Part shown: in pieces, positions 23,761 to 47,615 of the stretch
Layout of the letters: each line of letters opens with the position of its first letter
How positions within the stretch are numbered: position 1 is the stretch's first letter
Assembly: GCA_036172245.1 (NCBI GenBank)
Contig: JAYWIR010000017.1
Span: forward strand, 1,674,001 to 1,738,000
Reading direction: 5' to 3'
Source of the DNA: Raillietiella orientalis
Lineage: Eukaryota
DNA length: 64,000 nt
Made by a program: the position numbers and the translations under genes
The notes under the pieces: generated by a model
Databases searched by the model: none
Told to the model about the DNA's origin: nothing
Seen by the model: the letters and a program-made list of their open reading frames with translations, nothing else

Positions 23761-23774
23761 CCGGGTGCGCCGGG

Positions 23775-24565
23775 GCATTTATTGCTAAACTATCCGGGAA
23801 CAGAGTTCCCGGACAAAGGACACAGAAAAAACGAAGGGAGGGATCCCCGACACGCAGGTCGGTAAACCGAAAGTCCGGAACGGAAGGGAGGGAACCACAA
23901 ATACACATATAAAAAATATAAATAAAGATATGGGAGGGTAGGGGACAGGGGTCTTTGGTTTGGGCCGTTCCTTTCCTTCAGAACCGGCTATGGATGCCGG
24001 TGATCTCGCTCCTAACGTCCTCTGGAAGATGGGCCCACTCGGCAGCCGACGTCATGTTCTCGTCGGCTATTCCGGTGGCCTGCCGACGAATCGCCTGCTT
24101 CTCCAGCTTTCGGTGGGCCTTATCGATGGCGCTGGTGCAACAGACCGTTGCGATGACAGCACCTAAGGACAGGCCACCTGGCGTGAAGAAGCGGCGCATC
24201 AAGTCTGTTGCGGTGTCCCCCTGGTGCAGGAGAGCTGAGGGCAGCCTCCGCCACAGTCCTTGGAAGGTATTGCAGTCCAAGAGCAGGTGGGAAAGCGTTT
24301 CCACCCCACCGCACCTTTTGCAGTTCGGGGAGACAACTACCCCGGAAACACGGTTCGTCTGCTGATTGAAGTGAAAACCCAATGCACCAGCATGATGACG
24401 TCTTGCTTCCAAGAAAGGGGGAACACAGAAGTGTTCAAACAGGAGGGAGGGACCACAAGTTCTTCGGGAGGCACACTCAAAAGTTCGCTCCACCGAAGGA
24501 GTCTCTTCGCGATGTTGCGAGGAGTGGCGGCGTCTGCCAGCTCGCTAGTCCTCCAGCTGCCCATG
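23775..24565 (-). mobile_element. 5'-truncated L1/Tx1-like non-LTR retrotransposon 3' end (zinc knuckle, C-terminus, 3' UTR)
   Basis: CKRCGGVETLSHLLLDC CCHC motif at 24272-24323 is typical of the ORF2 C-terminus. Stop at 23978, followed by a T-rich 3' UTR with perfect hairpins (TCCGGGAAC-AGA-GTTCCCGGA) and AATAAA at 23783-23778 (minus). Confidence 0.75.
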
Positions 24566-24569
24566 GGTC

Positions 24570-25018
24570 GGGTAGTTCCTGCGATGGTGCAGGAGACCTC
24601 TCACCTCCCATCGTTCCTGCTGTTGCACTGCTGCGGTGCCGTCCAGAAGCTTTTTGGAGGAGGCTGGCTGGCTAGCTGACTTCAGCGCTCCTGCACCCGG
24701 AGGATGCTGCTAAGGACTTGCCCCGGGGATTCTTCGTGGGATCTGATGGCATAGTCGCGACGGGCGCCGTAATTGCCACGTCACGCTGCATCCGTGCCAT
24801 TTGCTGGAGTTTCGAGAGCAGCGAAGGGTGGGCACCTGTGTGGCAGCTGTCTGCACGAGGACGTCTGCATTAGAAGTCAAGAAAGAGATCGTCGCTATCC
24901 AGAGGCGGTTCTGCCTGTGACCTCTGTCCCCACCCTCCACTTTATCTGATTTATTTCTTCTCCGATTCCGTTTCCGGACTTTTAGAAATCCCGACCTGAG
25001 TGTTGGTACACCCTCCCC
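24570..25018 (+). mobile_element. Second, diverged L1/Tx1-like 3' end in opposite orientation, joined back-to-back with the previous copy
   Basis: Plus-strand ...LLLHC...FWRRL...LTSALLHPEDAAKDLPRGFF...GAVIAT...KEIVAIQRRF aligns with minus-copy LLLDC...LWRRLPSALLHQGDTATDLMRRFF...GAVIAT...SEITGIHSRF. The 3' UTRs also match (TTCCGGACTTT, CCGACCTG). Confidence 0.75.
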
Positions 25019-26160: not shown

Positions 26161-26552
26161 TCCATTACCAAGGTTGTTGTTGGTTACCAAGGAGACGTTA
26201 TAGAACAAGATGTACTTTGGGGTAAAAAATCAAATAAACCAATAAGATATCAATATATTAGTTTGCGACTTCAAAGTCACACCAGGCTATAAATGGTCAT
26301 ATGGATACCCAGGCACCACCGGGTGAAAATCTCCATGCCGAAACTGAGAGCAAGGCGCACCATCTTATCCAGTTCATGCATGGGACCGACTCCCCGTGGC
26401 TTCGGATATCCCGAGATCTGGCAGACATGGCGAAGACTATCTAGCGAGTAGTCGGAGGAGAAAAGTCAAGGAAATGCATGGACGGAGCCCTTCCTCAGGG
26501 CTAAGGAAACCCCCATGGTCAGTTTCCACCTTCTTCCCCTTTTATCCTACAG

Positions 26553-26710
26553 AGACTTCCGAAAACTTTAAACGCGGAATCCTAGATACAGAACCTGTGA
26601 GGAGGTTCTCACGGTGGACGGGTCGCTGGTCCAGGGACAACATGCTGAATCTGCATGCTATAGTCATCCGAGACGAGGAGAATGGTCGTCGCTGGAGTTC
26701 CTACGCGTCT
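26553..26710 (+). pseudogene. 5' half of a death-domain-like exon interrupted by the 20.8-kb insertion
   Basis: Strong acceptor CCCCTTTTATCCTACAG ends at 26552. Frame TSENFKRGILDTEPVRRFSRWTGRWSRDNMLNLHAIVIRDEENGRRWSSYAS continues in frame at 47519 once the insert is removed. Confidence 0.55.
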
Positions 26711-29700
26711 TTTCGTGGGCTCGCATGCGCGCTGCGCGCGCTTCCCGCTTATCGTATGAACTTCCGCTGGTCTCTCCCCCAACCTACACATGCACTTCTT
26801 CTACCTTGATAAATGAAAGAAAACAAAGAGCATGCTACCCAAAGTGGAAGACTTGACAGCCCATATCAAAACATCTTTCCAAAGAGATTCATCGGGTGTC
26901 ATCAGCAGACAAGAAAATTTATTGCCTGCGTTTTCATGAGCAAAAAACCCGCACGAATGAGGGGTGCACGTGCGACAATCGATGTCCACACACTCCATGT
27001 TCGCCTGATCGCGTTTACGTGGGGACCAAAATAAGAAAAAGCCACGGCAGTGGACCGAAATTCTGGAATCGAAAAAGTAACTCCCTTCCCTCCTGCCAAG
27101 AGCGAAGGTTCGACCATGGAAGCGCCCAAAACGAGGCGGGGAAACGGGCGGGAGAGAGACCAAGCCAAGGAGACAAACAGACTTCCCGCCGAGGCAGTCC
27201 ATTCGCGCGATCCGCGTCCCCCACGCATGCCACCTCTGCGTCAGCGCCCGAAATTTCGGTGGCATATCTTGCAGACTCGCCAGCCAACGCTGCAAGCATC
27301 CGAATCGCTGCACGGGAGGTTCGCTTGCAGCCCGCGCTCGCGTCCCGACCCGAGAAACTTCCAACCGCCGCACCCGGTGCTTGCTGGCTTTCCCGTTTTT
27401 CAAGTGCCGAGCCGGAGGAGAGGGATTCGCACTGCGAGAAGGGGCAGCTGCACGCGCTCCATCCTCCGCCACGTGAGCCTGGCGTCGTGGCGAGCCAGGT
27501 GCTCACCCCTTCCTCCCGGCTGCGGAGCGCATCCTCGCTCTCCCGCAACGCCAGAGAAGAGACGGAAGAACGTGCGGTCGCGACCACCGCAGCGCCTGGC
27601 CTCCGGGCGCACCGTTCCGTGCCTCGAGCTTCCTCCCACTGCGACCGCACTCTGCCCTCTGCCTAAATGGAGACGCTGAGGTAAGAACGGCGAGAAGGAA
27701 GGAACGGTCGCACACGCTTCCTTCCTCCCATCTCCCTCCTTGCCTGCCGATCTCCGAGGCGCCCCGAACTCCGCATTCCACCGGATCCCGGATGGTGCGT
27801 TTGCTCTCGCATGTCGCATCCCCGGGAAGGACCGACGTGCAAGGAGTGCAGTGTGCGTTCCGCACCCGCTGAGAAAGAAACGAACACAAAACGCATCTCG
27901 CACTCGAGGAAACTGCGACGTGAGCTCCCGTGGAAAAGCAGCACCCACTGGACGCGCGCGCAAGCAATCGGCGCGAGGGTGGCGCCACGCCAGCAGATGG
28001 CTCTTGAGGGCGCGAAACAGCTCGCTCCCGGAGGATTGGAGCCGCATCCCGGGGATCACACGCACGACAAGAGCCACGCGCTCCGCGTGCGGAAGGATCG
28101 GAGAACCACTGCTGGGACGTGAGCGGCCGCGACGGCGACCCGCTGGCTACGCCCGCGCGGGGAGCACCAGCCAGTCTTCCCTGCCCATCCCTTCCCGAGC
28201 TTTCTCTTCCGTTCCGTCGCATGGCCGCCACCGACCGTCGCGTTTGCCCGCATCGCGCGGTTCCTGCTCCACTTCCGAAAATGTAGCCTCCGTCGTAACG
28301 CAATTTGCGTTGACAACTTGATGACGGCGAATGGAGAAGCCCGTCCAGCGTGAGGTCTGCTGCTTCCCGTCAGCCACCAATCAGCTGCATCCGGAAAGTG
28401 GCTGGAAAAAATGCAAACAAAAGAAGGTGAAAACTGCAATCTCGTAGGTAGGAGAACTCGGTTCATGCCAGAAGCGTGGCGTTCTCTTTCGCAGCACTTT
28501 GCTGACAAAGTCTCTTCAAGATGCTATCCTACGTCCAAGTGATGCTTCCTCCCTCGTCGTGCGGGGTGAATCGAGTCGCGTCTCCCGAAAACCGATCCGC
28601 CGAGCACAACCCCTCCGAAAGTGCACGCATCCCGGATCGAGAATCGGAATCCAACCGGGCAGAGAGCTCGCTTCCACGCGTTCCTGAAGCAGGCCTAAGA
28701 GAAGTCCTGGAAAAGTAGAAGCATCGGCTGATCAGCGTCGTCCTCTTGGAGAAGAGCAGCATCCGGAAACGCAACAGCGCCTCCGCACTATCCCGTTTCC
28801 AATACTCACCTGGCTTCGAGGTGTTCGATTGTGATCCCGCTTCCTCTTGTGAAGAAGAGAGCGAACCCGTGATGCCCCGCAAATCGGAGTCGGCGACGTG
28901 CGCTGGGCGGAGCAGCCTCAGGAACCTGCACGCTTCTTGTCCTCCCCTCGGATTCCGGAGTTGATCTGGAGAGAAATCACTCCTCCGTTTGTCCAGCGGC
29001 CCCGCATCATCATTGCAGTCCATGGACTCTAGTGCCCGAAGCCACGGGATGACGTTCCGCAGCGTGCAGTTGCTGCGGAACAGAAGCACGTGCTAAACCA
29101 CGTTTCCACGTCCATCACTGTGCACTTTTTGTTCGTGCTCTTCCAAAAGAAGGATGGATTTGCTCGCGTCTTGCTGAGTTGCGAGAAGCACGGCGGAAAG
29201 CATTCGCCACGCGCAAAAATTCCCTTTCCCAGTGGTCACACGACACGAAGAGAGCTCTCGTCCAATGCGATCCCAGTCTTGAAGTTGAAGCGTCTCACGA
29301 ATTCCTGAAGGGGATTCGGAATGCTTGAGGCAAACGTGGCACACAGTCACGTCTGCAGAACACGTGTGCACGCTTTGCAACCATCGAACGCTTCGTGCTC
29401 CGTGTGCTGGTCTCCAAATGACAAAAGATCAGGTCTTTGAGATTCTCCTGCTGCCAGCGTCCGGAGAACTACGAAATGGAGAAAGCGGAACCCAAGGAAG
29501 AAGACCGAAACGCCCCTGCGTCTTCCCAGTGTTCCAGCTTTTCCCGGCTGCATCCCTCGATTTTCGACAGCCATCCCATGCCTCGATACGCTCCCCGCAT
29601 TCCGTGACCTTAGGATGGCCTTCTTAAGAATGCGGTAATGTGTCTACAGGTGTCGTTGTGGGAAGCCATCCCTTCCATTGCAGCTTCGCTGCTTCCTTTT

Positions 29701-32700
29701 CCGCTGCCATGAGCCGAACGGCGGCGGCGGCGGCGGACCCATTAGGGATTGCGCTTTATTCCGCAGCCAAGAAGAGATACTTTTGACATGCGACGCGTTT
29801 GCCCTTCCCGTTGAGTGTCGGCTAACGGAGTCCGGGTTTCTCAAGTGAGTCATCGATCAGAGGAAAGCAGGCCACCGGCTTTGTGCGAGAATCGAGCATT
29901 TGAACGTTTCCAGTATATTCATTCTGGGGGATGTCAACGGAGGTTCCTCTACCATCCCTTCCTAGAGCGCTTGTGCATGATTTAGTGCAAAAGCTCATAA
30001 GGAAGCATCTCGAACCCAGAAGGATAAATTCCCGGCAGTGATTGCAGTGCTTCAAGAATCCGCATCAAAGTCCGGCATCGATCCCTTCCTATTCATTTCC
30101 GTCTGCAAGCACAAACTCCTCCATTCGTTGTCGATCTTGAGCACTGCTCATGTGTAGCCTTTCCGTCGGCATTCAACTGCAGCGTTTCACGTGGGATACC
30201 GATTTCCGAAGAAGCTGATCAAGTTTGATACAAGAAATAAGTACGTTTCCTTTTTGTATTCCGCAAAAATTCGCTCTTGCTCAGTATCGCATAGGCAATG
30301 GATGCGCATCCATAAGTTAACCAATCTTCCGCTTTTGCCACTGCCAAGCATTCTCCTCATCCACCCTGTCTGCCTTTATCCTTTGCGCACATGTGGCTCA
30401 AAGCGCCACCCTGCAATCGTCTTCCTGCAGAAAGAAGGGGTGCTGCTGCCGACAAGTGCGCCTTGTCGCAAGCCAAACGAAGAAGCCATGGTGAGCGAAC
30501 ACTCTGCTTGCAAGTTCATCCCGCACCCAAACGAGTCCGCAAAGCACTGGAACCTTCCAGTTTATCGTTTCGGTTTGCAATCATCGTACAAGGATTGGTA
30601 CGGCGCGGATCAGGCGCGACACGGCGCAAGCAAACGCGATCGTCGCCTCAAACGGAAAAGAGCTCGAACCCAGAAGGCCGTGTCGTGTCGTACTGGGCTC
30701 GTTGATTTTCTTCTTCCTCAGAGCTTTCTGATCCAGATCAATCATCGCGATGGAAATCCAATGAGAGGGGAGTGCACTTAAACTCTCGAGAAAGAGGATG
30801 GAGCTTTTCGACCGTCAGGAAACAAGAAAACGTGAACCTGCTAACTCGTCGACATGGATTTGCAGATCGCATGACTTCTCGCAGTCATCCCAAAGAGAGA
30901 CCACTGAGCACTGACAAAGGAATGTCGACATTCACTCGGGTAGGAGACAAAGGCAAAAGACTTTCCAGAAACTGGCGATTTTCTTCCCCTAAGGAAAGTG
31001 CATTTGCAGAATGCGTTTGGAATATAATTTTGTTGGGACACCAAAAGACACACAGGAATACCGCTTGTTTCCGTTTTGATGGAGGCGTCCATTGAAGCCT
31101 GAAAACGTGGTTGTACGCACCTTTTCCCAAGAAGAACGCCTCACACTTGCAAAAAATAGTCCGACGGATCGGCAGTGATTTCGCGTGGTTCGAATCCGCA
31201 GTCTCGACTGAAACGCTGGCAGACAACGAGGAGGACCTGATGATCTGGCCAATGTTTGCACGCAAAGCAGCAAAGAAAAGGTAAAAGAGAAGAAAAGCAG
31301 GATGGCAAGGCGCATGTCCATTTCAGCGAGCACAGGTTTCGGGAAGGGAGGTTTCAGCAGCCCACCGATTCCCGGTGAGAAGTGATAGCAACTTTCCGCT
31401 CGCAGCGGCAACTCGGTATCGAAGGCCGACTCGTAGCCCCAACTGCCAACAGCCGCATCTCCTTTAGATCAGCAGCACTCGGGCGTAATGTAGGGGAAGA
31501 GTTGGCAAGAAGAAGAATTTTGCCCACCGCTTTCCTACGCTTGCTTCGCAATTCTCCGTTTTGTGTCAGAGCGCGATCCCATAGCAACGTCGCGTCTTGG
31601 TTTGCTTCCTCACCCTTTTCCGAACATAACTGGATCATTCGTTTCAGGTGAGCAGCCATTCGTTTCAGTTGCTTCTCTCCCGTACAAACCCATAACATGA
31701 ACTGAAGCAGGAAGCACAGCATGGCACTCGCTCTGAAATTGGCGTTCACATGGGAATGGCAATCGTAACGCAAACGAGGCAGCAAGAGCGTTGGATAGCA
31801 TGCGGTGTCCAACCACCAGTACATCGCGGTGTTCAATTTCCACTCACTTTCTGGAATCCCAGTTTTCAACCGACTGTTGTGGAACGGGCGGAGAATGAAG
31901 ACGAGAAAAGGAGCTATGTGCAATTCCGTTCGGTGATGCTGCAGAAGGAGATTAGACAAACGCCGTTTCTCACTCCAGTCGATGCAGTAGCTTGCCAAAG
32001 GACCTCCGGTTCCATGGTTCCGCTTCGCGGGCTGCATCTATTCGCTTTTCCAATGCCCACACTCTTTGACGCTAGGAAGAAGAAAGACGAACGTTTTGCA
32101 AGAGTGGGAATCGATGGAAATTTGAAACGAATAGGGCGGTGCAACACGCGTCCAAGCGAAATGAATGGGAAAATGAAGTCCAAGCCTTTAAAGAATGATG
32201 AGTTTCGAAGGCCTGCTTCTACGTGGAGCAACAGTTTTTTCCTCTTGGAAGAAACAAAGCAACTTGGTAAGTTTTCGCAAGGGCTTATCTTTGCAAGGAA
32301 GCACTCGCGAACGTGCAAAGTTCGGCACCATTCAGAGAAAGCGAAGAAGACGTAAAAGTTGCCCTTCGGGATCCGAAAAACGAACGGAACGTGCTCTGCT
32401 CTACTCGGCGCCCCCCCATCTCGCATTTTCAGCCGGCTGTTTTTGCAGCGGAATGGCGAATGCACGATATCGACACGATATCAACAACCATCGTGCTGAA
32501 GAGCACGCAAGAGAAGGCAGCCGTGCGATGGTTGAAGGGATTCAATGGAAATTTGCTCGTTGACGTTACCCCCGTCAGCCGACGGATCGTCCAAGCCTCC
32601 ACGTTTGTTCGCGTGCCAAGCACCGAGGCGATAGAATGACTCGCAGCCGCTTTGCTGATCTGACAGGACTCAGCCCACGAATCTGTTTCGTGCGAGCTCC

Positions 32701-32846
32701 CTTTGATTCATCTTTGCCCACGATGGCTCAGTAAGCACAATTCGTGCGGCAGAGGCAGAAAATCTGTTAAAACACTGGCGAGAGCAGCCGTCGATTATGC
32801 TGAAGACTCTGAGAAAGCCGTGCCTCCAGATAAGCCGTTACCTGCT

Positions 32847-32865
32847 CCCCCCCCCCCCCCCCCCC
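32847..32865 (+). repeat. Poly-C run (19 nt)
   Basis: Direct observation. Confidence 0.9.
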
Positions 32866-35800
32866 TGCTGAAGGACAATTTCGCAGCAGATCAGTAGTCA
32901 GAGAGATCGATGCTCGAACTCCCCTCAGGAAGGATCGGGAGACTTTGAAAAGATCCCACGCTTCGGATCGGTCTTTGCTGCCTCCAAGACCGAATGGAAA
33001 GCTCGGCAAAACAGCGCAATCCACCTGAACGGAAGGGAACAAAGGTGCGGAGTTGAACGTGTCCACCACGTAGTCATTAGAAATGAACACCCGTTGGATC
33101 CGAGAACGTTTCGACGAGCTCGCTTCACAAATTTAGCACCATAAGAAGATCTGATCCACAGCAGCGCTTTTTGTTTTGCCCTTCTGTTGATGCATGCGAC
33201 CAAGATATCCAGCCAATTAGGCATCCGCCTTTTTCCGACTCTTTCATTTGTCGCTGGGGACTGCGAGTTCTCCAAGATCGCAAATCGAAAGAGCCTAATG
33301 AAGTGCTTCTCAGCCTAATCCTTGTGGAATGCTTCACCTGGAATTCTTTGCCCTCCCTGTCTCCGTTGGATCATCTGAAAAAGTTCACTTTTCCTGCCGT
33401 TTCTGACCTGGTCTTCGCTGAAGAGCGTCTCGCTTCCAAAGCCAGCCAGGAGAGTTCTAGGGAAATTCCGAATCCGGAAACTGCTGGCTGCGGCAGGATC
33501 GACTACCCATTGCGACCACGAAAGAATTTCGCCAGAACCACTTGACTGCGAGCAGGAATCGCAATTGCTCTCGCGTTCCTCTTCCTTCGCGATGCTGGAT
33601 GTCTGAATTTGCATTCAGACTATTCAGCCACGTTCGAGCGAATGTTCATAGTGGAGTGGACGTCAACGAGGGTGACGTAAGCACTACCTGTGCGTTCAAA
33701 AAAGGAAAAGTCGCAAGATGTACAATATTTTTTTTTCTATTCTTTCCAGATCAAAAAACCCAAATTTTATTCAAAGATGCTTGATGTCGATGACACACAA
33801 TCACGTGGAACGCGCGATTTCTTTCGGATCCATCTAGCTCTTTGGCTGCAACCAGCAGCTTTCGATTGAGCCCCATTCGAGTTTAGGTTGCCTTGGGAAA
33901 GCTAAGAGGCACAGAATATGAAAGCAGCAACGAGAACAAACACGTGGAGAACACATCGGCAGAACACGACTCTGAAATTGGCGTCTGCTGAAACAAACAT
34001 GCAAGAACCAATCTGTTTCCGGCATCACCTTCACGAATTTTGCCTTCCGTCACGCTCTTTTTGCGACTCCTAACCATCAGCGAATGGAACTTTCCAAAAT
34101 GACAGGGGAGCAGAGAAACAGGAAAGAGTTTGGGGCCTCCGTGGCTGCTGCACGTATCTTGCTGAGAGCCGATTCTTGCTTTCCGCGGAACGGCAGCGTC
34201 TTGAGTATCGCAAGAAAAAGTGATTTCGGCATGTAAACCACAATTTGAATGCGACAGCAGCCGGTATGCGGATCTCTCCCAGTCGGAAATCAGGTCTTGT
34301 TTTTGGCAAGGGTGCTGCAGCATGCAGCAAGGCTGATGTGTTGGCAGCAGCGGGTTCGAACGTCGAGAAAGAAGAAGGTGACGCAAAGCAGCAGAACCAG
34401 AAAACTTGAAAGTATTTTCCTGATCGAAGCGGACCGCTTCCGGAAGTCTCCACCTCGTCCAAAGTATGCATTTCTTCACAGACCGGAAGCATACTTGCTT
34501 CCCCCTTCCTTTTCCGTTCCCAATGCTGCTGCCACGGGCTTCCTTTCTGCGTAGGAGCAAACTTGCCTTTTTTTTTCGTCGAATCGTTTCCTTCCTAGAA
34601 TGCGATAACGTCTCTTCACCATCCCTGCGAAAGTCATTCACAGAATGCAGGTCCTCGAAGTCTTTCCTGGGGGTATCTGCAAAGTGGATGAAGGATAGTT
34701 TCCATTCGGCTTGTCAACCTGATTCGCAAAGCACCGAATCATCGATAGTCATGGTGTGATGATCGTCCAACAACAAGAGCACGGCTGTTTTTTGGTGTTT
34801 CGAAATGCGAGCAAGACGAAAGGAGAAATCCTGGACGTCAGAACTGGAACTGTCGCGGCTGTCGAACAGAATGGATGATTTCTGGAAAGTGGAGACTCGG
34901 CCTGGAAATGCACGAGAGCCGGTAAGCGAACCGCTCTGTGCACACAGGGTGCTGGAGAAAAGGAAAAAAGCAGATTGCCAAGTAAGCGTCGTCAAGAACT
35001 CCAAATTTTCCAAATTTCAAAGAAAGTGCTTTGATGTTTACCTACATCCGCATTCCATTTCTCATCGAGTATCTTGAAGAGGAAGCAGTTCGATAAAATG
35101 GAAAATTGGATAAAGTTCAGGATGTCCAATCGGATGGGGAAAGCTGTCCAGATCAAGAAAGTTTCTCGTCGACTAATGAGAAATGGTGAACTGGCGAGGA
35201 AGGTGGAGGTGCTGCGGTGGCAAAACGTAAGGAACGGAGTGGGAATGCAGACTCCTCCCGAGTGGAGAGCCAATCTTTACTGACTTTGAAGAGAAAGGAC
35301 GTCATGTCGGAATATGTCGCAGTCGAAATCATTGGAAGACCTCGCAATTTGCCCTTTGCGCGCCTCGATTCGCGCCTCGACAAGGTGCGCACCACAAGTA
35401 CGACAAGGCATCGAGTGCATTCCGGTGCTTGGAGGAAGATGCATCACTGTCTGGCACTCTAAGCGCACAGCTTGGGGGCACGCGACTCCGGATCTGCCTC
35501 TTCGTCAAGCAAGCAGTGTCCGGACTCCCTTCCATCTTTGGAATTGTGATGTCTAGGGAATCTGTTGGAAAAGCAGTCTGAAAGGCATCCATCAGCCTGA
35601 AGCCTAATCCGTCTATCGTCTATGGCCCACTTCGATATTCTCTGGCATTCTGGGCAAGATGCAGGGTTTACAGAGATGCTACTGCATTTTCAAACTCAGG
35701 TTTCTGATTCCGGTGCTGTTCTCACTTGAGACAAGCACCATCTTATTGAGGGACCTGTTCCTTCTTGACCTCTGAGATCTGGTCCTGCTTCTGGAATCAG

Positions 35801-38800: not shown

Positions 38801-41689
38801 ATCTGCTGGCACGAAAAGAGGAATGTTGAGGTACGACTTGCGCCGTTGCCGAGCGACTCGTTTGCAATCCAAGTCTGCTGCGATGGAAGAATGGTAAGCG
38901 TGCCTCGTTCAGAGATTGGCAGCACCGGAAGTGCACGCAACAACATGCTTTGGGCATGGATAGAATGAGAAGAATTATCATCACGTGGAAAGGCCGGCGA
39001 GTAGCGCACGTCGTTTTCCGAAGTGGAGCGGTGCATGCCGCGATGAAGTCCTGTTGCGGATCGGTGTGTGGCTGGCGGCCAACAGCGCAAAACGAAGAAC
39101 GCATTTCCTCACCGTCATCGCATGCAGGAAGAAGACGCACGATGGGGGGCGATTCGGGAAGCAGAAGTTTGTTGTGCTGGGTCTTCCATTCGAAGAAGCG
39201 GAAGGGCGCGTAGGCTGCTTCCTGCTTCTAGGAGTTTCTCCACCCTTTGGAGTGCGTTTGAGGTAAAGGAGTGAGAGGTACTCTGAGGAATGCGAACGCG
39301 CAAAAGATGAAACACAAGGAAGAAGAGAAACGATCATCGGTGCGCTCGCGAATGAATTGTTTTTCCGGAGAAAGCAGATCAAGAGACTGCCAATAAGCAG
39401 TGTTGCTGAACACCGTGTCCTCACACTTCGGAAGCCCAAAGGGCCTTTGGTTGTTTGTCATCGTGGCAAGATGTAACTTGGGAATGGGGTTGCTGTTTGC
39501 AGATTCTTAGAGATCCCCGTTCTTCGACTCGAAACGCTTCCATCAGAGAAGTGCAGAAAGGTGTGTGGAAAATGGGGAGTGGGACACCAGCATAAAGTGG
39601 AGTTTGCCTGAATGCAACCCATGTAGGAGTGAGGGACTAAAGGATTCGTACGTCGCATCGACGATTAGTAGAAAAACGCCTTCGGTACAGCGAACTCATC
39701 TATCGAGATGATAATTCACGTCATCTGAAGGATGGAGAGGATTCCTGCCGAAGAATTCCAACTCTAGTGGAGTTGGAAAGATGCAGCATGCTTAGGTCCA
39801 CGTTAGCACAATATGATGAACACCTGTGCGATTTGGGAAGCATTGCAGGAAAGCGTTCAGTTGTGGGACTACATGTGGCGGTAGTTGCTCTGGTCGTGGT
39901 ACATGATGGAAGGCATTGTCGCTGTTGGAAATCTGCAGAGTGAACGGAAATCTCGGAAGAGCAGGAGGCACAATGCAAGGACGGAGGTGGAGAAGACCAC
40001 GATGGAAAGCAATCAAAGCAAAGGAAAAATGAGTTGCACTCCTTGCTTTGATCAGGATGACCGTTTGAGCAAGGTCGAAGGAGACGAGAATCTCCGATCC
40101 ACCTGTGGAGGATAGTGAGAGGGCGAATAGTAAATGAGGCCTTCTTCCTTCCAAAGTAGGAAGCTCGCGGGAGGAGTTCAGGGAAACTGCATGGAAAGTG
40201 GCAAGCGCGGTCTCTATTTTGGCTCGAATCTTCACCCGAATCGGGAATGGAATTTTAAAATGGAACATTGCAGGGGTCCTTTACAGGGAACCGTTAATAA
40301 GGAAGAGAGAAGATGCCTTCTTTCTCATAACGGTAGCGAAACGGTGGAACTCTTTTCCACGATCAGAGAGATCCTTCATGCGTGTGTGTGTATGCGTGCG
40401 TTCCTCAAGTTGATTCATCGAACGAACAGTTGTTGCTGTTGTTTTTGCCTTCAATTTCGTAGCTGACATGTTTTGTTGCACGACGTGGAGCGGAGTATCG
40501 AGGTATCTAAGGGAAAAGAAAGAGAAAAGAAGGACTCGTAACATGCCAGCAGATCAGTACAATACGCGCAGCTGATCTTGCTCATCAGGAGCAAGATCGA
40601 GTTGAAGGCTTGAATCGGGCCGAGCGGAAGCTTCCGGGAGGATTGCAACTCTCCAAACGCTGATCCGGAAGGAAAAGCGCCACCAAGAGCGTGGTGGCTA
40701 TTCCTCACTTCCTACTGAGTGGAAGTTTCTAACAGAGCAATGGCTGTGCACGTGAACGATGGAGACGTACATACATCAATGAGAATCGGAGTTGTCGCCG
40801 AGCATTTACAAAGTCACGGTATTACGAGGCAAGAAGATGGATGTGATCAAGCGAAATCAGGCAGGATAAGAGGAAGAGGAATGTAGACAACGGCGCGAAG
40901 CTACGAGGACATTGCACTGGGAGATGAAAAGTCGAGGTAAAAACTCAAAGCAGGAAGCAGTCTCCAACAGCAGGGTACATGCGCATTCTTCCATGAGGTT
41001 CAACGAGTGACCTTTGATGATCGATGAACAACGGAAGCCTCCTCGGACGCGAGCCCGCATGGACGGCAACCATTCGTCGTCGTTCGGGCTAGGAAGCAAA
41101 GGTGTGCTTAGAAGCGGCCCTTCCAAGGCGCAACGTCCAACGATGGCCAAGTGGCACGCAAAGAAAACTCCGAACGTCGACTGTCGATCCGGAATGAAGA
41201 AAGTGAGCAGGAAGGGACGACGGAACGGCCCTGAGGCGATACGAATGCGGCGCATGTTGTGCCGGATGCCGATTCCGCACACGGGGGAGACTGTGCAATT
41301 TTTTGTTGACAAAAAGGGTGGTTGGTTGCCTGCGCGGTGGCGCAATTGCAGTCCATCGAATCACGCTTTGGGCATTCGGAAGTTCCGGAGTGCATTTCGG
41401 TTTCTTGGTTAACTATTTATCGCACGATTGATGCGAGCATCAATCTCTCCACCTACGAAAGAGATTTATGTACCAAAGCATTCTTGATGAGGCACAATAC
41501 GTGAGCATCTGCCACACTAATTCGCTGAGAGTCGGCGCATGCGGCTTGTTTGAAGCATTCGGAACTTTGCGCATGGTACGTCATCCGAGTTTGTACTCAA
41601 CTTTGCGCATACCTGCCCCAAATTCTTTGCATTTCTGGGCGCTTGGCTGCTATCTCACAGAATTCAAACTTTTCTTTCTCGCAACTTAC

Positions 41690-41780
41690 ATTGTGTATGC
41701 CATATATGAATGGATTGCAGCAGCTGTTGCTCATGGCAAGCCAGTGGAAGCAGAACCAGATGACATTGATATATCTGTAA
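41690..41780 (-). CDS. Lkr: Leucokinin/kinin-receptor-like class A GPCR, TM7 exon (91 nt)
   Basis: (D)YRYINVIWFCFHWLAMSNSCCNPFIYGIHN with NPxxY, closely resembling arthropod kinin receptor TM7. Acceptor TTGTTTTCAG, donor GTAAGT. Phase 2 matches the upstream exon. Confidence 0.85.
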
Positions 41781-41862
41781 CTGAAAACAAGACCAATCAA
41801 TACAATCCTGCAGTCCTCTTCCTGTTGTCATCTATAAGGAAAAATGCTTGCAAAAAACCGGA

Positions 41863-41940
41863 TTAATCCTTTGACCGCAGGGCGTGGTACGCGTACGGTT
41901 ACAGGTGCGCAAAGCCGAGCAACTCACTATCCAGAAGAGT
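41863..41940. mobile_element. Possible solitary piggyBac-like terminus within the GPCR intron
   Basis: TTAA-TCCTTTGACCGC resembles TTAA-CCCT piggyBac ends and the end at 25093. No partner end found. Confidence 0.25.
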
Positions 41941-42481
41941 CGCGAGAAGGTAGCAAAAAAAATAAATAAATAAAGGTAGGGGCGGAACATCTTGATCTGG
42001 CATGCTCGGTAAGCATGCTAAGATAAGACGAAGATTAACTTCAAATGCGAATGAAAGGAACGCATAGGGACAGCGAATGCAATGCTCACAATTGGATGAT
42101 GATACGCATGCTAATCGCAATGTACAGCTGGAGAAACCGAAACAAAAGCGAACTTTTCTACTTCCTCCCGTACGCAGTTGTTGTTTCACAGGGAAGCATC
42201 TTTGCACAGAACGAAACCAGCAGTGGTGGACACCGGCGGCGTCGGCTGCGGTGCGTTGCTGGGGCACCAGCTACCAGGTGTCCCCGCCGTTGATAGACGG
42301 GTATGAGGAAACATTGAAAAGCGAATCAGGAAAGGAGCCCTACCACGGACGATGCCGTTTCGAACGACTCGACTGTGCGCCCCGCGATTCCTTCTACGCG
42401 AAGGAGTCATCGAGCGCGAACCGCGTGCGCGCACCATCACAGCAAGTGCGCGCGCTTCTGCTGCAAGCACGAGCAGTAGCA

Positions 42482-42500
42482 CAGCAGCAGCAGCAGCAGC
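42482..42500 (+). repeat. (CAG)6 microsatellite
   Basis: CAGCAGCAGCAGCAGCAGC seen directly. Confidence 0.85.
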
Positions 42501-44380
42501 TGTTGCCACGATTGGAACCCGGAAAGCCGGAAGCTGCTTCGATCGGAATGAAGAGGGTCGCAACAAGCGTCGGGACACGCAGAAGAACGATGGCAATCCT
42601 CCCTACGCAAGAGATACAGAGCGCAAGCAGTTCGTCTCTCCGAAGAGCCCTTGTGCTTTCTTGCAACTTCCATCCCATCTCCATTCTCTCCGGCAATCTT
42701 TGTTCCGATCGGGAGCACCAACCCAACGGGGCTTTCCTTCCAGAGGAGCGTGCCCGAGAAGGGCTTGGGAAGGGGGAGGAAAGAAAAAAAGGAAACAAAA
42801 CATTTCAGGTGTGCTGCAGTCTCCCATCCTTAATCTGTCCACCGAATGCAACCGGCTAGCCGAACCTGGACTTTGGCGAGTTTCTTTGGATCCTGCATTC
42901 CCTTCTTTGATAGCGCGCGCGCGAATTCCAGCTCCTCGCAAATCCGCAAAGCCTCGTTGCTGGGATATCGAACGGAGCATCCGCACCTTTTGCGAACCGC
43001 TTCTGCCAGGCAGAAGCGGGAGAAGTTGAAGAAGAAGGAGGATGCACAAGTTGCCGGCAGCGGACACCTCCTTCGAGTGTGCCAGAGCCAGTACTGCGAT
43101 GCTCGAGCGCGCTGGCCGCGAGAGCGAAGGAAACGAAGAAACCGGAAGAGCAGGAGACGACACCTGCCTGGAGCCATGACACGGCAGACGCTTGCGACTC
43201 GCGAGTGCACGCAGGAGATTTGCCAGCCTGCCGGAGAAAAGGCAGACTCCGCTCCACCCGCACCAACTGGAAGAGGCACGCGGAAAGGCAGCCGGGGCTC
43301 AGCGCTCCAGATTGCGGAACTGGAAGGTGCGAGACCTGCACGTCTGCAGAGAGGGACGCCTGCCCGCCAACGTCAAGTCGCAGTCGTACACCACGGAGCC
43401 CAGTCGGCCGGCAAAGAATCGCATCGGCGACGGCCCTCCGGCCGCCATCCAGGAAAGTTGGCCCTTCCACGTGGGTAAGTGGATTACTCGCTTAGGTGGC
43501 AACGGCTTGCTGCGATCCGCAGATGTGCAAGAGCATTCGTCTCACGTGCGGGGAAGAAACGGGAAACAACGTGTCCGTTCCAGGCGGTCGAAACAGGGAA
43601 AGAGCGAGCGGTCGCGGCATTCGGCATGCGCCAACACGATTGACGGGAGGCGCATTTCCGAGAAAGCGTGATCCGGAGATCGCCGAAAGAGGCTGGCTCT
43701 TGGGCGCGCATGCGTGCCCGCCCGCCCGTTGACGGAGGGGCTGCGTGACCCTCGTCCTGGAGTCGTCGCACGGAGGGAGCATCGGACTGTTGCCGGTGGA
43801 CCCGGAGCAAAGACAAAGCATCCTCCGGCCGATCGGTCTGTTTTTTTTTTTTTTTTTTCGAGCTCTTCCCGGGAAGTTGGAAGCCGGCGGAGCAGGGATT
43901 CCGGTCTGCCGCCGAGAACCGCTGAAAGCCGTGCCGCTGCCCGCGACGACTCAAGGAGCGCACCGCGTGCCCGTTCCTTCTGGCAGCCTCGCCAGGGGAG
44001 CGAAAAGCTGACGAAGTCGCGTCATCTCCTTCCGAGGAGGCGACCGTGCTCCACGCCGAGAGGCAAATCGCCATCCCTTTTCCCGTGCCCGGTCCTTCTT
44101 CCAGAACGACATCGTCGTTTTCCATGGGGCCGATTGCGCGCCTCCTTTCCCGACGGGAATGAGTGCAACACGTAGCCGCAATTCCTTCCCGTTAACACGC
44201 ACTTTTTCCGTTTGTCTGTGCGCACGTGTTCCAGGAGGCGTGTGGTCTTTCGCGCTTGCCGAGGGTCTCCGAGGGGGAGGTCAAGGGGAGGCAACGAGTG
44301 TTCGCGGTCGCCGCAAGAGGATACGCATGCACTGCATCCGTACCAATCTCGTGCAGGAAATGCCACGCCCTGGTACTTAC

Positions 44381-44481
44381 TCGTTGATGGAAGGAAGGAT
44401 TTCCTGAAGGACGTGGTAAAGCTGGAGCGGGAACCAACAAATTGCGAACAGAATAACAACAATAAGTAGCATTTTTGTGAC
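44381..44481 (-). CDS. Lkr: Leucokinin/kinin-receptor-like class A GPCR, TM6 exon (101 nt)
   Basis: VTKMLLIVVILFAICWFPLQLYHVLQEILPSIN(D) with the CWxP motif. Acceptor TTTTTCCTCCAG, donor GTAAGT. Splices in frame to 41780 across a 2.6-kb intron. Confidence 0.85.
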
Positions 44482-47400
44482 CTGGAGGAAAAATTTGCAT
44501 ACATGAATGACGTTTTCAAATGCCAAATGTCTTTCTTTCAAGGTCAGACCCAGTCGCTTTGCTTTCCTTCCTTTCTCTCCTCCTAAATCATCTGCCGTCC
44601 GGTTGTCGACGAGGTGACAACCACTTCCGCTCGCAACACCGCAGGAAGGAAAGGTGCAGGAGCCTACTACCACCACCTAGACTGGAAGTGGCGTGAAGAC
44701 GAAGACTGTTTTGTTGGTGCAAAGAGGAAGGGCGAGGCGTCGATCCGGATGGCACGTTCTGTAGCCGCTGTCTTTCGGCGCCAAGCATGCCTACGGGCGT
44801 TTTCCGATCGGGCGAGAGCAAGCGGCTCGCCACGAAGAGGGCGGCCAACGTGCCTTCCGGTTCGCGACGCTCCACGAAGCGCCCCGGGTCGGCAGGCGCG
44901 CGGCCCGCGGACCAAGTGCACTTCGTCCCCTGACGAAAGTCCGGTCTTGACTTGCCTGGGGTCTTCCCTTCGGAACGCAGAGGGGGGGACCGCTCGGCAC
45001 TCGGACTTCTCGCCAGACGATCTGGCGAACGCGCGCTGGCTCTTCTCCTCCTGCTCGCCGCATGCCACGGAAGTCCTCAGGATCTGGTTCGGATCCTGGG
45101 CACCGACGGAAAGGACCATGCTGGGTTACGCGAATTCCCGCCCTTCGAGCATCCGCCGACCGGCTTGCCACGCCCCGTCCGCAAAGCAGACGGTCGCCAG
45201 GAAAAGACCCGTTCCGAGGTCGTCGCGAAGGGGCCGTTCCCTCGTCCGCATCTTCACGGACGCGCTAGCCCGTGCGCGTGAGATGTTCCCGCCAACGGGA
45301 GCACCCGAACGATCGATGCGTTCGTGAGGAGATGGGAGGGGGAAGGAGGGAAGAGAGTACCGCAGCTCCCAACGTGCGCGGGATACTCCGTAGCCTGGGT
45401 ACTCATCCGCCTCCATCCCGATCGGAAAGCGAAGCGATGGCAAACGTTGTCAAGAGAAACTCATCTGCGAAGAAACCTCGACGCCCTGTCGCGTGTCGGG
45501 GCGGCGGTGCATGTCGCGTCCGCGTTTTCCTGCCGAGGCATCCCTCGCTCGGCGGTCGACAAGGAGAGCCAACACAAGAGAGTGACGACGAAAGGATGAC
45601 CTCGTCGAGCGACCGTTCGCCGCTGCTGCGCTCCTGAGAAGGGGAAGAAGCAGTTCGGCGGAGACGCGCTCTTTCTCCGACTCTTCGGCCGCTGCACGCA
45701 AGGACGCGGAAGCTTCTGCGCCATCAACTCCGGTCGACGCATGAGGGTGTCCGCCGCACTCGACTGGAAATGGACCCGGTGCCCGTTTGATCCGATCGCC
45801 AGCAAGCCACCACTGCTTCCGGGAAGCGCTCGCTCCCTCAAAGATCAAGGAGGGAACCGAAAGAGCTCGCTCGTGGGCCTGACTTTGACGAGTTTCTGTC
45901 CGCGGGATGCGGTTTGCAGCAGAGCATGCGGCTTTGATTCGCGTCTTGGTCTTCGCCGTGAGAGCTGCATGTGGCGTTTCTCATGCAGACAAGCCGACAA
46001 AGAGCATCATCTTTCCTTGCCAACCGTCCGACTACGTCTTCGTAACGTCGCCGCGTCCGCAATGGCGCGTTGTGCCCCGTACGTCTGCAAGCACCGCAGT
46101 GCTCGCGCTGCAGCCGCCAATCGTGAGCTCCCACTGCTGGTCCGCCACGGAGCGCTCACCCGGAGCCGTTGGTCTCCCGCGAGGCGATATCTCGGGACGG
46201 CACTGCCTGCTTACTGACTGGGGTTCTCATCAACAGTCTTCCCGGTCGGCCCTCTCCCGTAAAAAGGTGCGCTGATTCGGGAGTTTGTGGGCGTTTCCCT
46301 GCTACACGACTGGGCCACTTCCTGCGCGCGCCAGTTCGTTTTCCAGAACTCGAAGAACCGCTCGCGCGTCGGATGCAGAGGAAGCGCTACCTTCCCGGTC
46401 GGGGGTCCGTGAGCGACGGTCTGCCCCGCCGCCCAAGGACCGGGAATGGCAAGTTCTGCCGAGGACGGCGTGTTCCACCGTCTGCTGCGCAACCTGGAAA
46501 CCGATTCACCGACCAGGGATGCTGCAAGCAGTCTGTGCGTGCTCGCAGCACAGAATGATCGACGTTACGCTCTTCGTGCGCCAGCTCTCCCCACCGCCGC
46601 CTTGACCCTGCCGATGCATCGCAAGCGTTTGCCCTGGAGAGGAAGCCAAGGTGCAAGTTGCGTCGTGAAGCCGACAGCCGGCAGCCCGAACCATCGATGG
46701 CGGCGGTAGCGGCAGCGCGGGCGATCGTAGGCGTGCTCGAACGAGCGCGAGCGCAAAGGAGAGAATTGCCGCGGCGACGTGCCGACCGAAGCGGTTGCCA
46801 CGCCGCTTTGGCCCCTCTCGTTTCGCGCGCTCCTCGTAGGGAGCCAGCCGCCGCCTTCTCGACAGGAGCTGTGTGGGATCGGCTGGTTGCGCGGCTCGCC
46901 AAGCAGCATCGTACTCGCCGGTTCCCTGGAAAGGAATGCTCGCCGGCCGGGCAGCGAAGCAGCTTCTGTCTCCGCTTCGTCCCAGGAGCGCTTCCCGAAC
47001 GGAGGGAACGTCTGGCAGCATTCTCCGAATGCTCTGCATTTCTGCTGCGACCGGGCGGCGGTGCCCCGGCAACATCCCCCTGGCTCCGGGGAAAATCGTC
47101 AACAAGGAAGTTCCGTCGCGCAGTCGCGGATGATCGAAGGCCGTCCGAGAGGTGGCCACCAGGGCCGGAGGGGCGCATCCGTTGCCGTGTGTCTTTTTAG
47201 CGAGAAGCGGTCACTGCTGTTGTTCCCTTCCATGAAGGTGCCGCCAGCCGGCCGATGCCGCGGTTCTTCGCGTTGCGCTCCATGCCTGTGCCCCGCGGTC
47301 CTGCGTTCGGCCTTGGAGCAGGAGTGCAGTCGACGAGCCCAGGTCGAACGACCTCTTCCCGTGCTGGGAAGAAGGGAGTGCGTGGGATTCGGACGACGCC

Positions 47401-47511
47401 CTGGAGCCGCTGGTGTGCGTACATCTGCTCTTGGCTCCTTCCGAATCGAGGAAACGACCTCTCCGTAGAGCCACCGCTTTGCTGCGGCCACGGGCCGAGT
47501 CCGCACGAAAG

Positions 47512-47615
47512 CGCGTCTGAGAAATTAAGGAAGTGGGTGCAGGAAAAGCATCAGTTGGTCTCGACTGATGTCAACTCATTTCGGATGTGATCAATGCCGG
47601 CAGCTTTTGCTGAAG
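47512..47615 (+). pseudogene. 3' half of the interrupted death-domain-like exon
   Basis: (AS)EKLRKWVQEKHQLVSTDV followed by the donor GAAG|GTATGA at 47616. The LRKW motif fits a death domain. One in-frame TGA at 47588-47590. Confidence 0.55.

What the first reader, a model, noticed from the sequence alone, without database searches (positions are those of the whole stretch)
26704..47518. A 20.8-kb gene-carrying insertion with a 6-7 bp direct repeat and short inverted ends but no visible transposase
Seen: (i) CGCGTCT occurs at both edges (26704-26710, 47512-47518) of the CpG-rich block. (ii) Immediately inside are imperfect inverted ends (left TTTTCGTG-GG-CTCG; right, reverse-complemented, CTTTCGTGCGGACTCG). 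(iii) GC content falls abruptly after 47518. (iv) Deleting the block plus one repeat rejoins an exon with acceptor at 26552 and donor at 47616 that is exactly 255 nt, phase 1 at both ends and in frame across the junction (...RWSSYAS|EKLRKWVQEK...). The cargo is unspliced host-like DNA with two GPCR exons. Known: Mavericks make 6-bp TSDs but have long AG-starting TIRs and viral genes. Cryptons and fungal Starships have short direct repeats and a tyrosine recombinase. L1-type retroposition leaves poly-A. None of those hallmarks was seen. Inference: this may be a non-autonomous giant cargo element, or a genomic circle integrated at a short core, i.e. a little-described route of large-segment gene mobilisation in an animal.
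Basis: partly seen in the sequence, partly recalled or inferred. Interest (0 to 1): 0.85.

Follow-up and report, generated by a model that had tools for sequence, protein, structure and literature searches.

The report
Two abutting cargo transposons, half a receptor gene
A 20.8-kb stretch of compositionally foreign DNA in an arthropod genome looks like two transposase-less mobile elements inserted side by side at one site, one carrying the intact back half of a neuropeptide-receptor gene, but this rests on one locus and could not be checked against reads or other copies.

Summary
The repeat (CGCGTCT at 26704 and 47512), the short inverted ends and the sharp GC drop at 47518 are real. The "rejoined exon" argument fails. 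All three frames of the 255-nt join contain stops, the same frame stays open longer into the block, and the peptide has no true relatives.

New evidence still supports an insertion, as two units and not one. At 32672-32694 a 10-nt partner of the left tip abuts a 9-nt partner of the right tip (chance expectation about 1e-4). That gives E1 (26711-32682) and E2 (32686-47511), head to tail. Their right ends are related over 45 nt (P=0.002).

Both units share a dinucleotide signature unlike the flanks. E2 carries three intact, spliceable 3' exons of an arthropod tachykinin-type receptor; TM1-5 are absent from the window. No transposase, recombinase or polymerase domain was found in 281 ORFs.

Best reading (0.55): non-autonomous TIR elements carrying captured DNA, the closest analogues being Pack-type transposons and macrotransposons. 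No genome, reads or other copies were available, so superfamily, mobility and cargo origin remain open.

The parts
26704..26710 (.). Left copy of the direct repeat CGCGTCT (candidate target-site duplication)
26711..26724 (+). Left tip of unit E1 (TTTCGTGGGCTCG...). Bases 26712-26721 are a perfect inverted match to 32672-32681.
26949..26958 (-). Extra tip-like motif in inverted orientation, 240 nt inside the left edge (possible subterminal repeat)
26711..32682 (+). Unit E1, 5,972 bp: unique, non-coding, GC/CpG-rich and TpA-poor
32638..32682 (+). Right end of E1. It is related over 45 nt to the right end of E2, including CCGCTTTGCTG at 32647-32657.
32683..32685 (.). 3-nt spacer (CTG) between the abutting tips. 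Together with the preceding T it reads TCTG, the same as the last 4 nt of CGCGTCTG at the right flank.
32686..32699 (+). Left tip of unit E2 (TTTCGTGCGAGCTC). Bases 32686-32694 are a perfect inverted match to 47502-47510.
32716..32749 (.). Two further tip-like motifs (32716-32726 inverted and weaker; 32740-32749 direct). With the tips at 32674 and 32687, the core site at 32741 makes three core sites within 70 nt.
32686..47511 (+). Unit E2, 14,826 bp: GC/CpG-rich non-coding DNA plus three receptor exons. Host-like AT-richer patches coincide with the exons (e.g. 41651-42160).
44381..44481 (-). Receptor exon encoding TM6 (CWxP motif), 101 nt, AG acceptor, GTAAGT donor
41690..41780 (-). Receptor exon encoding TM7 (NPxxY motif), 91 nt, AG acceptor, GTAAGT donor
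35679..35873 (-). Receptor last coding exon (helix 8 and C-terminal tail, 64 codons plus stop), AG acceptor
46572..46586 (+). Tip-like motif 940 nt inside the right edge (possible subterminal repeat)
47467..47511 (+). Right end of E2 (ends ...GAGTCCGCACGAAAG), with CCGCTTTGCTG at 47474-47484
47512..47519 (.). Right copy of the direct repeat CGCGTCT (CGCGTCTG as an 8-mer). The compositional change point is at 47518.
26348..26710 (+). It has intermediate composition and no relatives.
47519..47615 (+). The frame ends at the TGA at 47588-47590.

Best explanation
The block 26711-47511 is inserted DNA bounded by short transposon-type ends, and it is a composite. Two non-autonomous units of one end-family lie head to tail, 3 nt apart: E1 (5,972 bp) and E2 (14,826 bp). 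They sit at a single host site, whose left flank ends in CGCGTCT and whose right flank begins with the same heptamer. Neither unit encodes a transposase. Both consist of unique, mostly non-coding, GC/CpG-rich, TpA-poor DNA with one shared signature. E2 carries the intact 3' half of an arthropod tachykinin-type receptor gene.

Inferred mechanism: cut-and-paste mobilisation in trans by a DDE-type enzyme that recognises the TTTCGTG(G/C)G tips and the subterminal copies of that motif. There are two possible routes:
(a) E2 inserted first, duplicating 7-8 bp, and E1 then landed in the left duplicate next to E2's tip, duplicating TCT.
(b) The pair moved together as a macrotransposon, using only the outermost tips.

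What is shown: the ends and their arrangement, the repeat, the composition, the exon structure and the lack of enzyme genes. What is inferred: that it moved, how it moved, the enzyme class, and that the receptor piece is a captured copy.
For: - Direct repeat and inverted tips at the stated places.
- The right compositional change point is exactly at the end of the right repeat copy.
- The internal site at 32672-32694 holds a 10/10 partner of the left tip and, 4 nt on, a 9/9 partner of the right tip. The expected number of such sites by chance is about 1e-4.
- 3 of the 7 core-motif sites lie within 70 nt (P=0.0012).
- The E1 and E2 right ends align over the terminal 45 nt better than 99.8% of random block 45-mers (P=0.002). 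E2's own two ends give P=0.017.
- The 11-mer CCGCTTTGCTG occurs exactly twice in the window, each time about 26 nt inside a right tip.
- The spacer plus the preceding T (TCTG) equals the end of the 8-mer at the right flank, as route (a) predicts.
- E1, E2a and E2b share one dinucleotide signature: delta* is 0.024-0.046 among them, 0.073-0.140 to the flanks, and 0.080-0.117 to the window's other GC-rich segments. TpA rho is 0.32-0.39 against 0.60-0.66, and CpG rho is 0.99-1.13 against 0.74-0.78.
- The receptor exons have GC3 of 0.57 against 0.31 for the flanking PCNA gene (P=4e-7).
- TM1-5 are absent from all 64 kb when searched with 36 full-length arthropod receptors. This fits a captured fragment.
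- Precedent: Pack-MULEs carry GC-rich gene fragments and cause a sharp local GC jump (PMC5861414, passages). Transposition can also use the termini of two nearby elements (PMC4270019, abstract start).
Against: - This is a single locus. No other copy of the ends exists in the window, and no genome, reads or relatives were available to show mobility.
- The 8-mer core motif is not significantly enriched in the block: 7 observed against 3.6 expected, P=0.057.
- Unconstrained local alignments of the ends are not significant. The significance depends on position and was noticed after the fact.
- The left compositional edge is at 26308, not 26711.
- Under route (a) the two units would have different duplication lengths (7-8 bp and 3 bp), which is odd for one enzyme.
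- The tips match no superfamily consensus that I can recall.
- The three receptor exons are fully intact with canonical splice sites. That is also what a native, functional gene with a long upstream intron would look like.
- Other GC-rich segments occur in the window at 21674-24940 and 61309-64000.
Confidence: 0.55

Rival explanations
1. Native receptor locus. The GC-rich stretch is simply the resident 3' territory of a tachykinin-type receptor gene in a compositionally heterogeneous genome. The repeat and the tip-like motifs would be chance, or an unrelated recurring motif.
For: Three exons are intact, splice in frame and are 55-84% identical to arthropod receptors. The left edge is diffuse. 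Other GC-rich segments occur in the same window. The core 8-mer is not significantly enriched. The heptamer is typical of the block's composition. A TM5-TM6 intron longer than 19.5 kb is possible.
Against: The chance expectation of the abutting partner tips is about 1e-4. The right ends are related (P=0.002). The repeat lies directly outside both outer tips. The change point is exactly 47518. The signature differs even from the other GC-rich segments. TM1-5 were not found in 16.5 kb upstream.
Confidence: 0.15
2. Site-specific integration of circular DNA at a 7-bp core (tyrosine-recombinase or Crypton-like logic). CGCGTCT would be the crossover core, and the inverted arms just inside would be the recombinase-binding arms of the element's attachment site.
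For: The anatomy fits attL/attR: a direct repeat with imperfect inverted arms immediately inside. The joined ends of a circle would form arms around a 7-8-nt spacer. The core is rare in the flanks, with 0 other copies in 43 kb.
Against: No recombinase domain was found in 281 ORFs. The internal abutting tips are separated by 3-4 nt, not by the 7-nt core. The host sequence beside the core shows no arm-like motif. The core word is not enriched, and the internal copies lack arms.
Confidence: 0.12
3. Helitron-like (Helentron-type) rolling-circle elements in tandem, which capture gene fragments by read-through.
For: The units lie head to tail, carry a gene fragment and lack a transposase. There are T-runs at the 5' tips, with the inverted motif starting 2-4 nt in. 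A 7-bp-stem palindrome at 47549-47571 lies 38-60 nt beyond the right inverted motif. This matches the layout described for Helentrons (PMC4067079, passages).
Against: A 7-bp direct repeat is present, whereas these families make no TSD. The ends are not 5' TC / 3' CTRR. E2 is not flanked by T on both sides. Composition drops at 47518, not beyond the palindrome. Such a palindrome has roughly a 5% chance expectation (my estimate). No Rep/helicase domain was found.
Confidence: 0.08
4. Assembly chimera or contaminant DNA spliced into the contig.
For: The composition is strongly foreign. There are no shared repeats with the flanks, though the two flanks share none with each other either. The junctions could not be checked against reads.
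Against: A misjoin would not return to the same host site after 20.8 kb, nor be framed by a direct repeat and matching inverted tips.
Confidence: 0.05

Closest known systems
Pack-type TIR transposons (Pack-MULEs of rice; Pack-CACTA recalled from memory)
   Same: Non-autonomous, TIR-bounded and flanked by a TSD. They are filled with unspliced host gene fragments, are richer in GC than their surroundings, and produce an abrupt GC transition at the insertion site (PMC5861414, passages; PMC6431247, passages).
   Different: Here the TIRs are only about 10-16 nt. MULE TIRs are long (recalled), and the MULE TSD is 8-11 bp (PMC5861414), against 6-8 bp here. The units are 6 and 15 kb, not a few kb. The host is an arthropod, and in 2008 transduplication of coding sequence was called unknown in animals apart from one C. 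elegans case (PMC2572040, abstract start). No parental gene or autonomous partner was seen.
Macrotransposons / alternative transposition of linked Ac/Ds elements
   Same: Two nearby elements of one family in direct orientation, whose outermost ends could be used together so that a TSD frames the whole composite (PMC4270019, abstract start; macrotransposition itself recalled from Huang and Dooner 2008, not read).
   Different: That system is hAT in maize with an 8-bp TSD and known transposase. Here the family is unknown and no movement was observed.
Teratorn (medaka)
   Same: A giant TIR element with additional internal TIRs (PMC6431247, passages).
   Different: Teratorn is 41-182 kb, carries its own piggyBac-like transposase and herpesvirus genes, and has 18-bp TIRs. 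None of these is present here.
Mavericks/Polintons
   Same: Size class of about 15-25 kb (recalled). A 6-bp TSD (recalled) is one of the possible registers here.
   Different: There are no long TIRs, and no polymerase B, integrase or capsid genes.
Helentrons/HINEs
   Same: Arthropod hosts, gene-fragment capture, short inverted subterminal repeats close to the 5' end, and T-runs at the boundaries (PMC4067079, passages).
   Different: Those elements make no TSD, and their 3' inverted repeat lies 38-60 bp inside the 3' end. Here the inverted motif is at the compositional edge and a direct repeat is present.

Membership tests
Pack-type non-autonomous TIR transposon (generic) | Inverted termini enclosing host-derived gene fragments, with no transposase inside | tested here: met
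   Tips. Three receptor exons with introns. No enzyme domain in 281 ORFs.
Pack-type non-autonomous TIR transposon (generic) | Target-site duplication directly outside both tips | tested here: met
   CGCGTCT lies outside both outer tips. The register is ambiguous at 6, 7 or 8 bp.
Pack-type non-autonomous TIR transposon (generic) | Multiple copies sharing the ends, a parental gene elsewhere, and an autonomous partner | not testable with these tools
   No genome is held. Only E1 and E2 share ends within the window.
Mutator-like (Pack-MULE) | TSD of 8-11 bp (PMC5861414, passage) | tested here: inconclusive
   An 8-mer, CGCGTCTG, is possible only after conceptually removing E1. Otherwise the repeat is 6-7 bp.
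Mutator-like (Pack-MULE) | Long TIRs of about 100 bp or more (recalled) | tested here: not met
   Inverted similarity ends after about 10-16 nt.
hAT | 8-bp TSD and TIR tips of the form YARNG (recalled) | tested here: not met
   The tips begin TTTCG / (G/C)TTTC. The TSD length is inconclusive.
Maverick/Polinton | Protein-primed polymerase B, retroviral-type integrase and capsid genes; long TIRs | tested here: not met
   No such Pfam family was found in 281 ORFs. There are no long TIRs.
Canonical Helitron | 5' TC and 3' CTRR ends, a palindrome about 11 bp from the 3' end, insertion between A and T, no TSD (PMC4067079, passage) | tested here: not met
   The ends read TTTCGTG... and ...CACGAAAG, and a direct repeat is present.
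Helentron/HINE | 5' subTIR 2-4 nt from the tip; 3' subTIR 38-60 bp from the 3' end, followed by a palindrome; TT target; no TSD (PMC4067079, passages) | tested here: inconclusive
   The 5' layout fits, and a palindrome lies at 47549-47571. However, composition ends at 47518, a repeat is present, and E2 is not flanked by T on both sides.
Crypton / tyrosine-recombinase element / Starship | An element-encoded tyrosine recombinase | tested here: not met
   No integrase or recombinase family was found. A non-autonomous derivative cannot be excluded.
LINE-mediated retroposition | A 3' poly-A or simple-repeat tail and spliced cargo | tested here: not met
   There is no A-run at either end, and the cargo keeps its introns.
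Rhodopsin-family (class A) neuropeptide receptor, tachykinin-like (cargo gene) | Seven transmembrane helices | tested here: not met
   Only TM6, TM7 and the tail are present. TM1-5 are absent from the window. The present part matches 7tm_1 and arthropod tachykinin/'substance-K'-type receptors.

The most novel reading that the evidence does not exclude
The two units are vehicles of horizontal transfer. On this reading, a transposase-less TIR element pair delivered about 21 kb of another, GC-richer arthropod's DNA into this genome, including spliceable exons for half a neuropeptide receptor. It would be a case of transposon-vectored movement of large non-coding and genic host DNA between animals. 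The evidence does not exclude this. The whole block, including synonymous sites of the exons, has a signature unlike the flanks and unlike the window's other GC-rich segments. It shows no CpG depletion.
Probability: 0.15. Interest if true: 0.8.

Novelty: new variant of a known kind. Interest (0 to 1): 0.45.

Why it matters
If confirmed, this would be an animal counterpart of the plant Pack-type elements. Short-ended, enzyme-less transposons would be moving tens of kilobases of host DNA, together with intact, spliceable exons. That would show how large segments and partial genes can be relocated, or possibly transferred between species, in arthropods. It would also define a new end-family whose autonomous partner could be looked for. 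Practically, it warns that half-receptor gene models in arthropod annotations may be cargo and not genes. Several 134-210-aa TM6-TM7-only models appeared among the closest database hits.

Tried and rejected
- Whole genome: none is held.
I replaced it with ORF-wise scans.
- TM6 piece against the 5.8-billion-protein index: no hit.
- Left half of the host 'exon' (52 aa) against 1.84 billion representatives: 2 hits, both repetitive bacterial surface proteins at 30-36% identity. I judged them spurious.
- The same peptide in metagenome contigs: 1 locus, a bacterial contig matched in a non-coding frame. Spurious.
- Sequencing runs for 42519-52518: none was listed, and no RNA holder was listed, so read laying could not be used.
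- Rfam: 0 matches. tRNAs: 0. Tandem repeats in the block: 0.
- Block against flanks and against itself by BLASTN: no shared repeats. The flanks also share none with each other, so the control is uninformative.
- Extended TIR search: none.
- Other GC-rich segments' edges (21668, 24941, 61309): no shared tip motif.
- Profile search for more ends: none beyond the four.
- Idea that 26711-26958 and 46572-47511 are small terminal elements of a composite: no internal homology, so it is left untested.
- Core 8-mer enrichment: P=0.057, not significant.
- Three copies of the 10-mer TTCGTGGGCT: not remarkable as a class, since 405 such words occur in the window.
- Heptamer as an element-specified core: not enriched, and the internal copies have no arms.
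- Long ORFs of the block: no codon-position asymmetry, so they are taken as non-coding.
- Earlier findings of this scan: nothing in 4 look-ups.
- Host species: not determined. The PCNA exon is 75-89% identical to unnamed marine metatranscriptome proteins and to chelicerate and crustacean PCNAs. The PDB entries 4cs5 and 4hk1 rank high; their organisms (shrimp, fly) are recalled, not shown by the tool.
- Two early versions of the TSD/TIR simulation missed the observed pair because of the 1-nt register error. They were corrected.
Full report
WHAT IS THERE

The window is arthropod-like nuclear DNA. A four-exon PCNA gene lies at 3201-4511 on the minus strand. Its first exon is 75-89% identical to unnamed marine metatranscriptome proteins and to chelicerate and crustacean PCNAs. 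Among PDB chains, 4cs5 and 4hk1 rank just below a triple-fusion construct; that these are shrimp and fly PCNA is my recollection. No whole genome is held for this window.

The flanks have about 35-40% GC and a CpG observed/expected ratio of about 0.6-0.8. From roughly 26.3 to 47.5 kb, GC is 48-65% and CpG o/e is 0.96-1.24, apart from one 1-kb bin at 0.77.

(i) CGCGTCT is at 26704-26710 and 47512-47518. The word has 5 further copies inside the block and none in the 43 kb of flanks. It is not over-represented in the block: 5 observed against 3.5-4.2 expected.

With a 7-bp repeat the arms are one base out of register. With a 6-bp repeat (CGCGTC) they match at 8 of 10 positions, with a run of 7. 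In Markov shuffles, a repeat of 6 nt or more with such arms arises in 0.8-3.3% of trials when the left edge may lie anywhere in 26300-27100. In narrow windows the figure is 0.07-0.4%. That is suggestive only. There is no longer TIR.

(iii) A two-model likelihood change point and a two-state HMM both place the right edge at 47517/47518, the last base of the right repeat copy. The left edge falls at 26308, because 26308-26710 has intermediate composition.

(iv) The rejoined 'exon' is indeed 255 nt and open across the junction. However, its frame ends in TGA at 47588-47590, before the proposed donor, and the other two frames also carry stops. The same frame read straight on into the block stays open for 32 codons, against 23 in the rejoined flank.

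The 52-residue left half has no real relative among 1.84 billion representative proteins. There were 2 hits, both repetitive bacterial surface proteins at 30-36% identity. In metagenome contigs there was 1 locus, a bacterial contig matched in a non-coding frame. So point (iv) is not evidence that the flanks were once contiguous.

NEW EVIDENCE THAT THE ENDS ARE REAL, AND THAT THERE ARE TWO UNITS

While scanning for copies of the tips, I found an internal site at 32672-32694. There, a perfect 10-nt inverted partner of the left tip is followed, 4 nt later, by a perfect 9-nt inverted partner of the right tip. Under a second-order Markov model of the block, the expected number of such back-to-back sites is about 1e-4. 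Three of the seven core-motif sites lie within 70 nt there (P=0.0012).

This divides the block into two units:
- E1, 26711-32682 (5,972 bp).
- E2, 32686-47511 (14,826 bp).

Read inward from their tips, the two right ends are related over 45 nt. An anchored global alignment gives P=0.002 against 2,000 random block 45-mers. The 11-mer CCGCTTTGCTG occurs exactly twice in the window, each time about 26 nt inside a right tip. Further tip-like motifs lie 240 nt inside the left edge, at 32716-32749, and 940 nt inside the right edge, as subterminal repeats would.

Cautions:
- The 8-mer core alone is not significantly enriched (7 against 3.6 expected, P=0.057).
- Unconstrained local alignments of the ends are not significant.
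- A profile search finds no fifth end in the window.
- These patterns were found by looking, not predicted in advance.

THE REPEAT UNDER THE TWO-UNIT MODEL

The order on the + strand is as follows:
- left flank ending in CGCGTCT
- E1
- TCT then G (the T being E1's last base in the coordinates above)
- E2
- G, then CGCGTCTG, then the right flank

If E1 and one TCT are taken away, E2 is framed by an 8-nt repeat (CGCGTCTG), or by a 7-nt repeat with tips in register at 9 of 10. So the spacer is what one expects if E2 came first and E1 then landed in its left duplicate.

The weakness of that order is that the two units would have unequal duplication lengths (7-8 bp against 3 bp). The alternative is a single move of the pair using only the outermost ends. 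I cannot decide between the two.

WHAT THE UNITS CONTAIN

I scanned 281 stop-free ORFs of 50 aa or more from the block against Pfam: 144 and 137. The only family with E below 0.001 was 7tm_1, in two ORFs. No transposase, integrase, recombinase, reverse transcriptase, polymerase, Rep/helicase or capsid family appeared. A handful of hits at E of 0.007-0.04 were all far below their curated cut-offs. The long ORFs show no codon-position asymmetry. The block has no tandem repeats, no Rfam match, no tRNA, and no repeats shared with the flanks or within itself.

On the minus strand, E2 carries three consecutive exons of a class A neuropeptide receptor:
- TM6, 44381-44481
- TM7, 41690-41780
- helix 8 and tail, 35679-35873

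Each has an AG acceptor, and the first two have GTAAGT donors. Together they make 128 codons plus a stop, with no internal stop.

The closest proteins are arthropod tachykinin/'substance-K'-type receptors from decapods, a barnacle, springtails and chelicerates. Identity is 59-87% over the TM7 query region and 54-76% over TM6 for those hits. tblastn with 36 full-length relatives finds nothing for TM1-5 anywhere in the 64 kb at E below 0.01. Pfam scans of short minus-strand ORFs upstream agree. So the window holds an intact 3' half-gene.

COMPOSITION

E1 and the two halves of E2 share one dinucleotide signature: delta* is 0.024-0.046 among them. It is distant from the four AT-rich flank segments (0.073-0.140) and from the window's other GC-rich segments at 21.7-24.9 kb and 61.3-64 kb (0.080-0.117). 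TpA rho is 0.32-0.39 against 0.60-0.66 in the two flank segments tabulated, and CpG rho is 0.99-1.13 against 0.74-0.78.

The receptor exons have GC3 of 0.57 against 0.31 for PCNA (Fisher P=4e-7). Host-like AT-richer patches inside the block coincide with the exons. So the block as a whole, including the synonymous sites of its exons, has a different history from its surroundings. The two units probably come from one source.

MOST LIKELY EXPLANATION (0.55)

Two non-autonomous TIR elements of one unclassified end-family, mobilised in trans, sit at a single host site and carry captured DNA. What is shown is the anatomy. What is inferred is that it moved, and by what enzyme.

The closest described things are:
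- Pack-type elements. [quoted passage not shown]
- Transposition that uses the termini of two nearby elements (PMC4270019, abstract start in the search listing).
- Teratorn, which is noted to have internal TIRs (PMC6431247, passage).

Membership in Mutator, hAT, Maverick, canonical Helitron or a recombinase-bearing family fails on at least one tested feature (see the membership table). Several of the defining consensus features there are recalled from memory and marked as such.

RIVALS

- Native receptor locus with coincidental motifs (0.15). It is favoured by the perfect state of the exons and the diffuse left edge. It is disfavoured by the 1e-4 internal arrangement, the repeat outside both tips and the distinct signature.
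- Circle integrated at a 7-bp core (0.12). The anatomy fits attL/attR, but there is no recombinase, the internal junction lacks the core, and the core word is not special.
- Helentron-like rolling-circle elements (0.08). The head-to-tail order, the cargo, the T-runs and a palindrome at 47549-47571 fit the published layout (PMC4067079, passages). The direct repeat and the compositional edge at 47518 do not.
- Assembly chimera (0.05). A misjoin would not return to the same site framed by a repeat and matching tips.

WHAT COULD NOT BE DONE

- No genome was available.
- No sequencing run could be listed, so neither junction could be checked against reads and no empty site could be sought.
- No look-alike stretch exists in this scan's notes.

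The supplementary figures of the Helentron paper, which show boundary details, and of the Pack-MULE paper, which shows the GC profile, were not opened. I rely on the main-text passages only.

VERDICT

This is a real and structured feature. It remains unusual for an animal in its size, its two-unit build, its foreign composition and its intact half-gene. The novelty class is a new variant of a known kind, and interest is 0.45. The boldest reading not excluded is transposon-vectored horizontal transfer of 21 kb of another arthropod's DNA, at probability 0.15.

Noticed in passing
52260-52667: A small mariner-like element. It has 126-nt inverted ends at 52260-52385 and 52543-52667 (93.7% identical), around an ORF with a weak Transposase_1 fragment at 52356-52595 (E=3.7e-4, below cut-off). 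The HMM calls it a GC-richer island at 52150-52689.
   Followed up: partly
21674-24940: A second GC-rich segment (55-57% GC, CpG o/e 0.73-0.83) with a sharp left edge just after a T-rich run at about 21668. It has one weak zf-RVT hit at 23981-24544 on the minus strand (E=0.0019). It is probably a decayed retroelement. Its signature differs from the block (delta* 0.10-0.12).
   Followed up: partly
3201-4511 (minus strand): A PCNA gene in four ORF pieces (PCNA_N and PCNA_C, E from 1e-18 to 1e-37) with short introns and low GC3 (0.31).
   Followed up: partly
12623-12967: An inverted repeat of about 113 nt (78% identical) with arms at 12623-12734 and 12854-12967. It may be a MITE or foldback.
   Followed up: no
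47549-47571: A palindrome with a 7-bp perfect stem (CATCAGT / ACTGATG) and an 8-nt loop, 38-60 nt outside the right tip, in the host flank. It is relevant only to the Helentron rival.
   Followed up: partly
32847-32860: A run of at least 13 C residues about 160 nt inside E2's left end. The view stopped at 32860.
   Followed up: no
(database proteins P0007, P0017, P0023, P0032, P0038 and others): Several arthropod genome annotations (barnacle, ticks, shrimp) contain 134-210-aa proteins that consist only of the TM6-TM7-tail part of this receptor type. They may be split gene models, or similar captured half-genes in other species.
   Followed up: no
9535-9545: The 11-mer TTCGTGGGCTC, identical to the E1 left tip, occurs once in the left flank. 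No similarity extends beyond it.
   Followed up: partly
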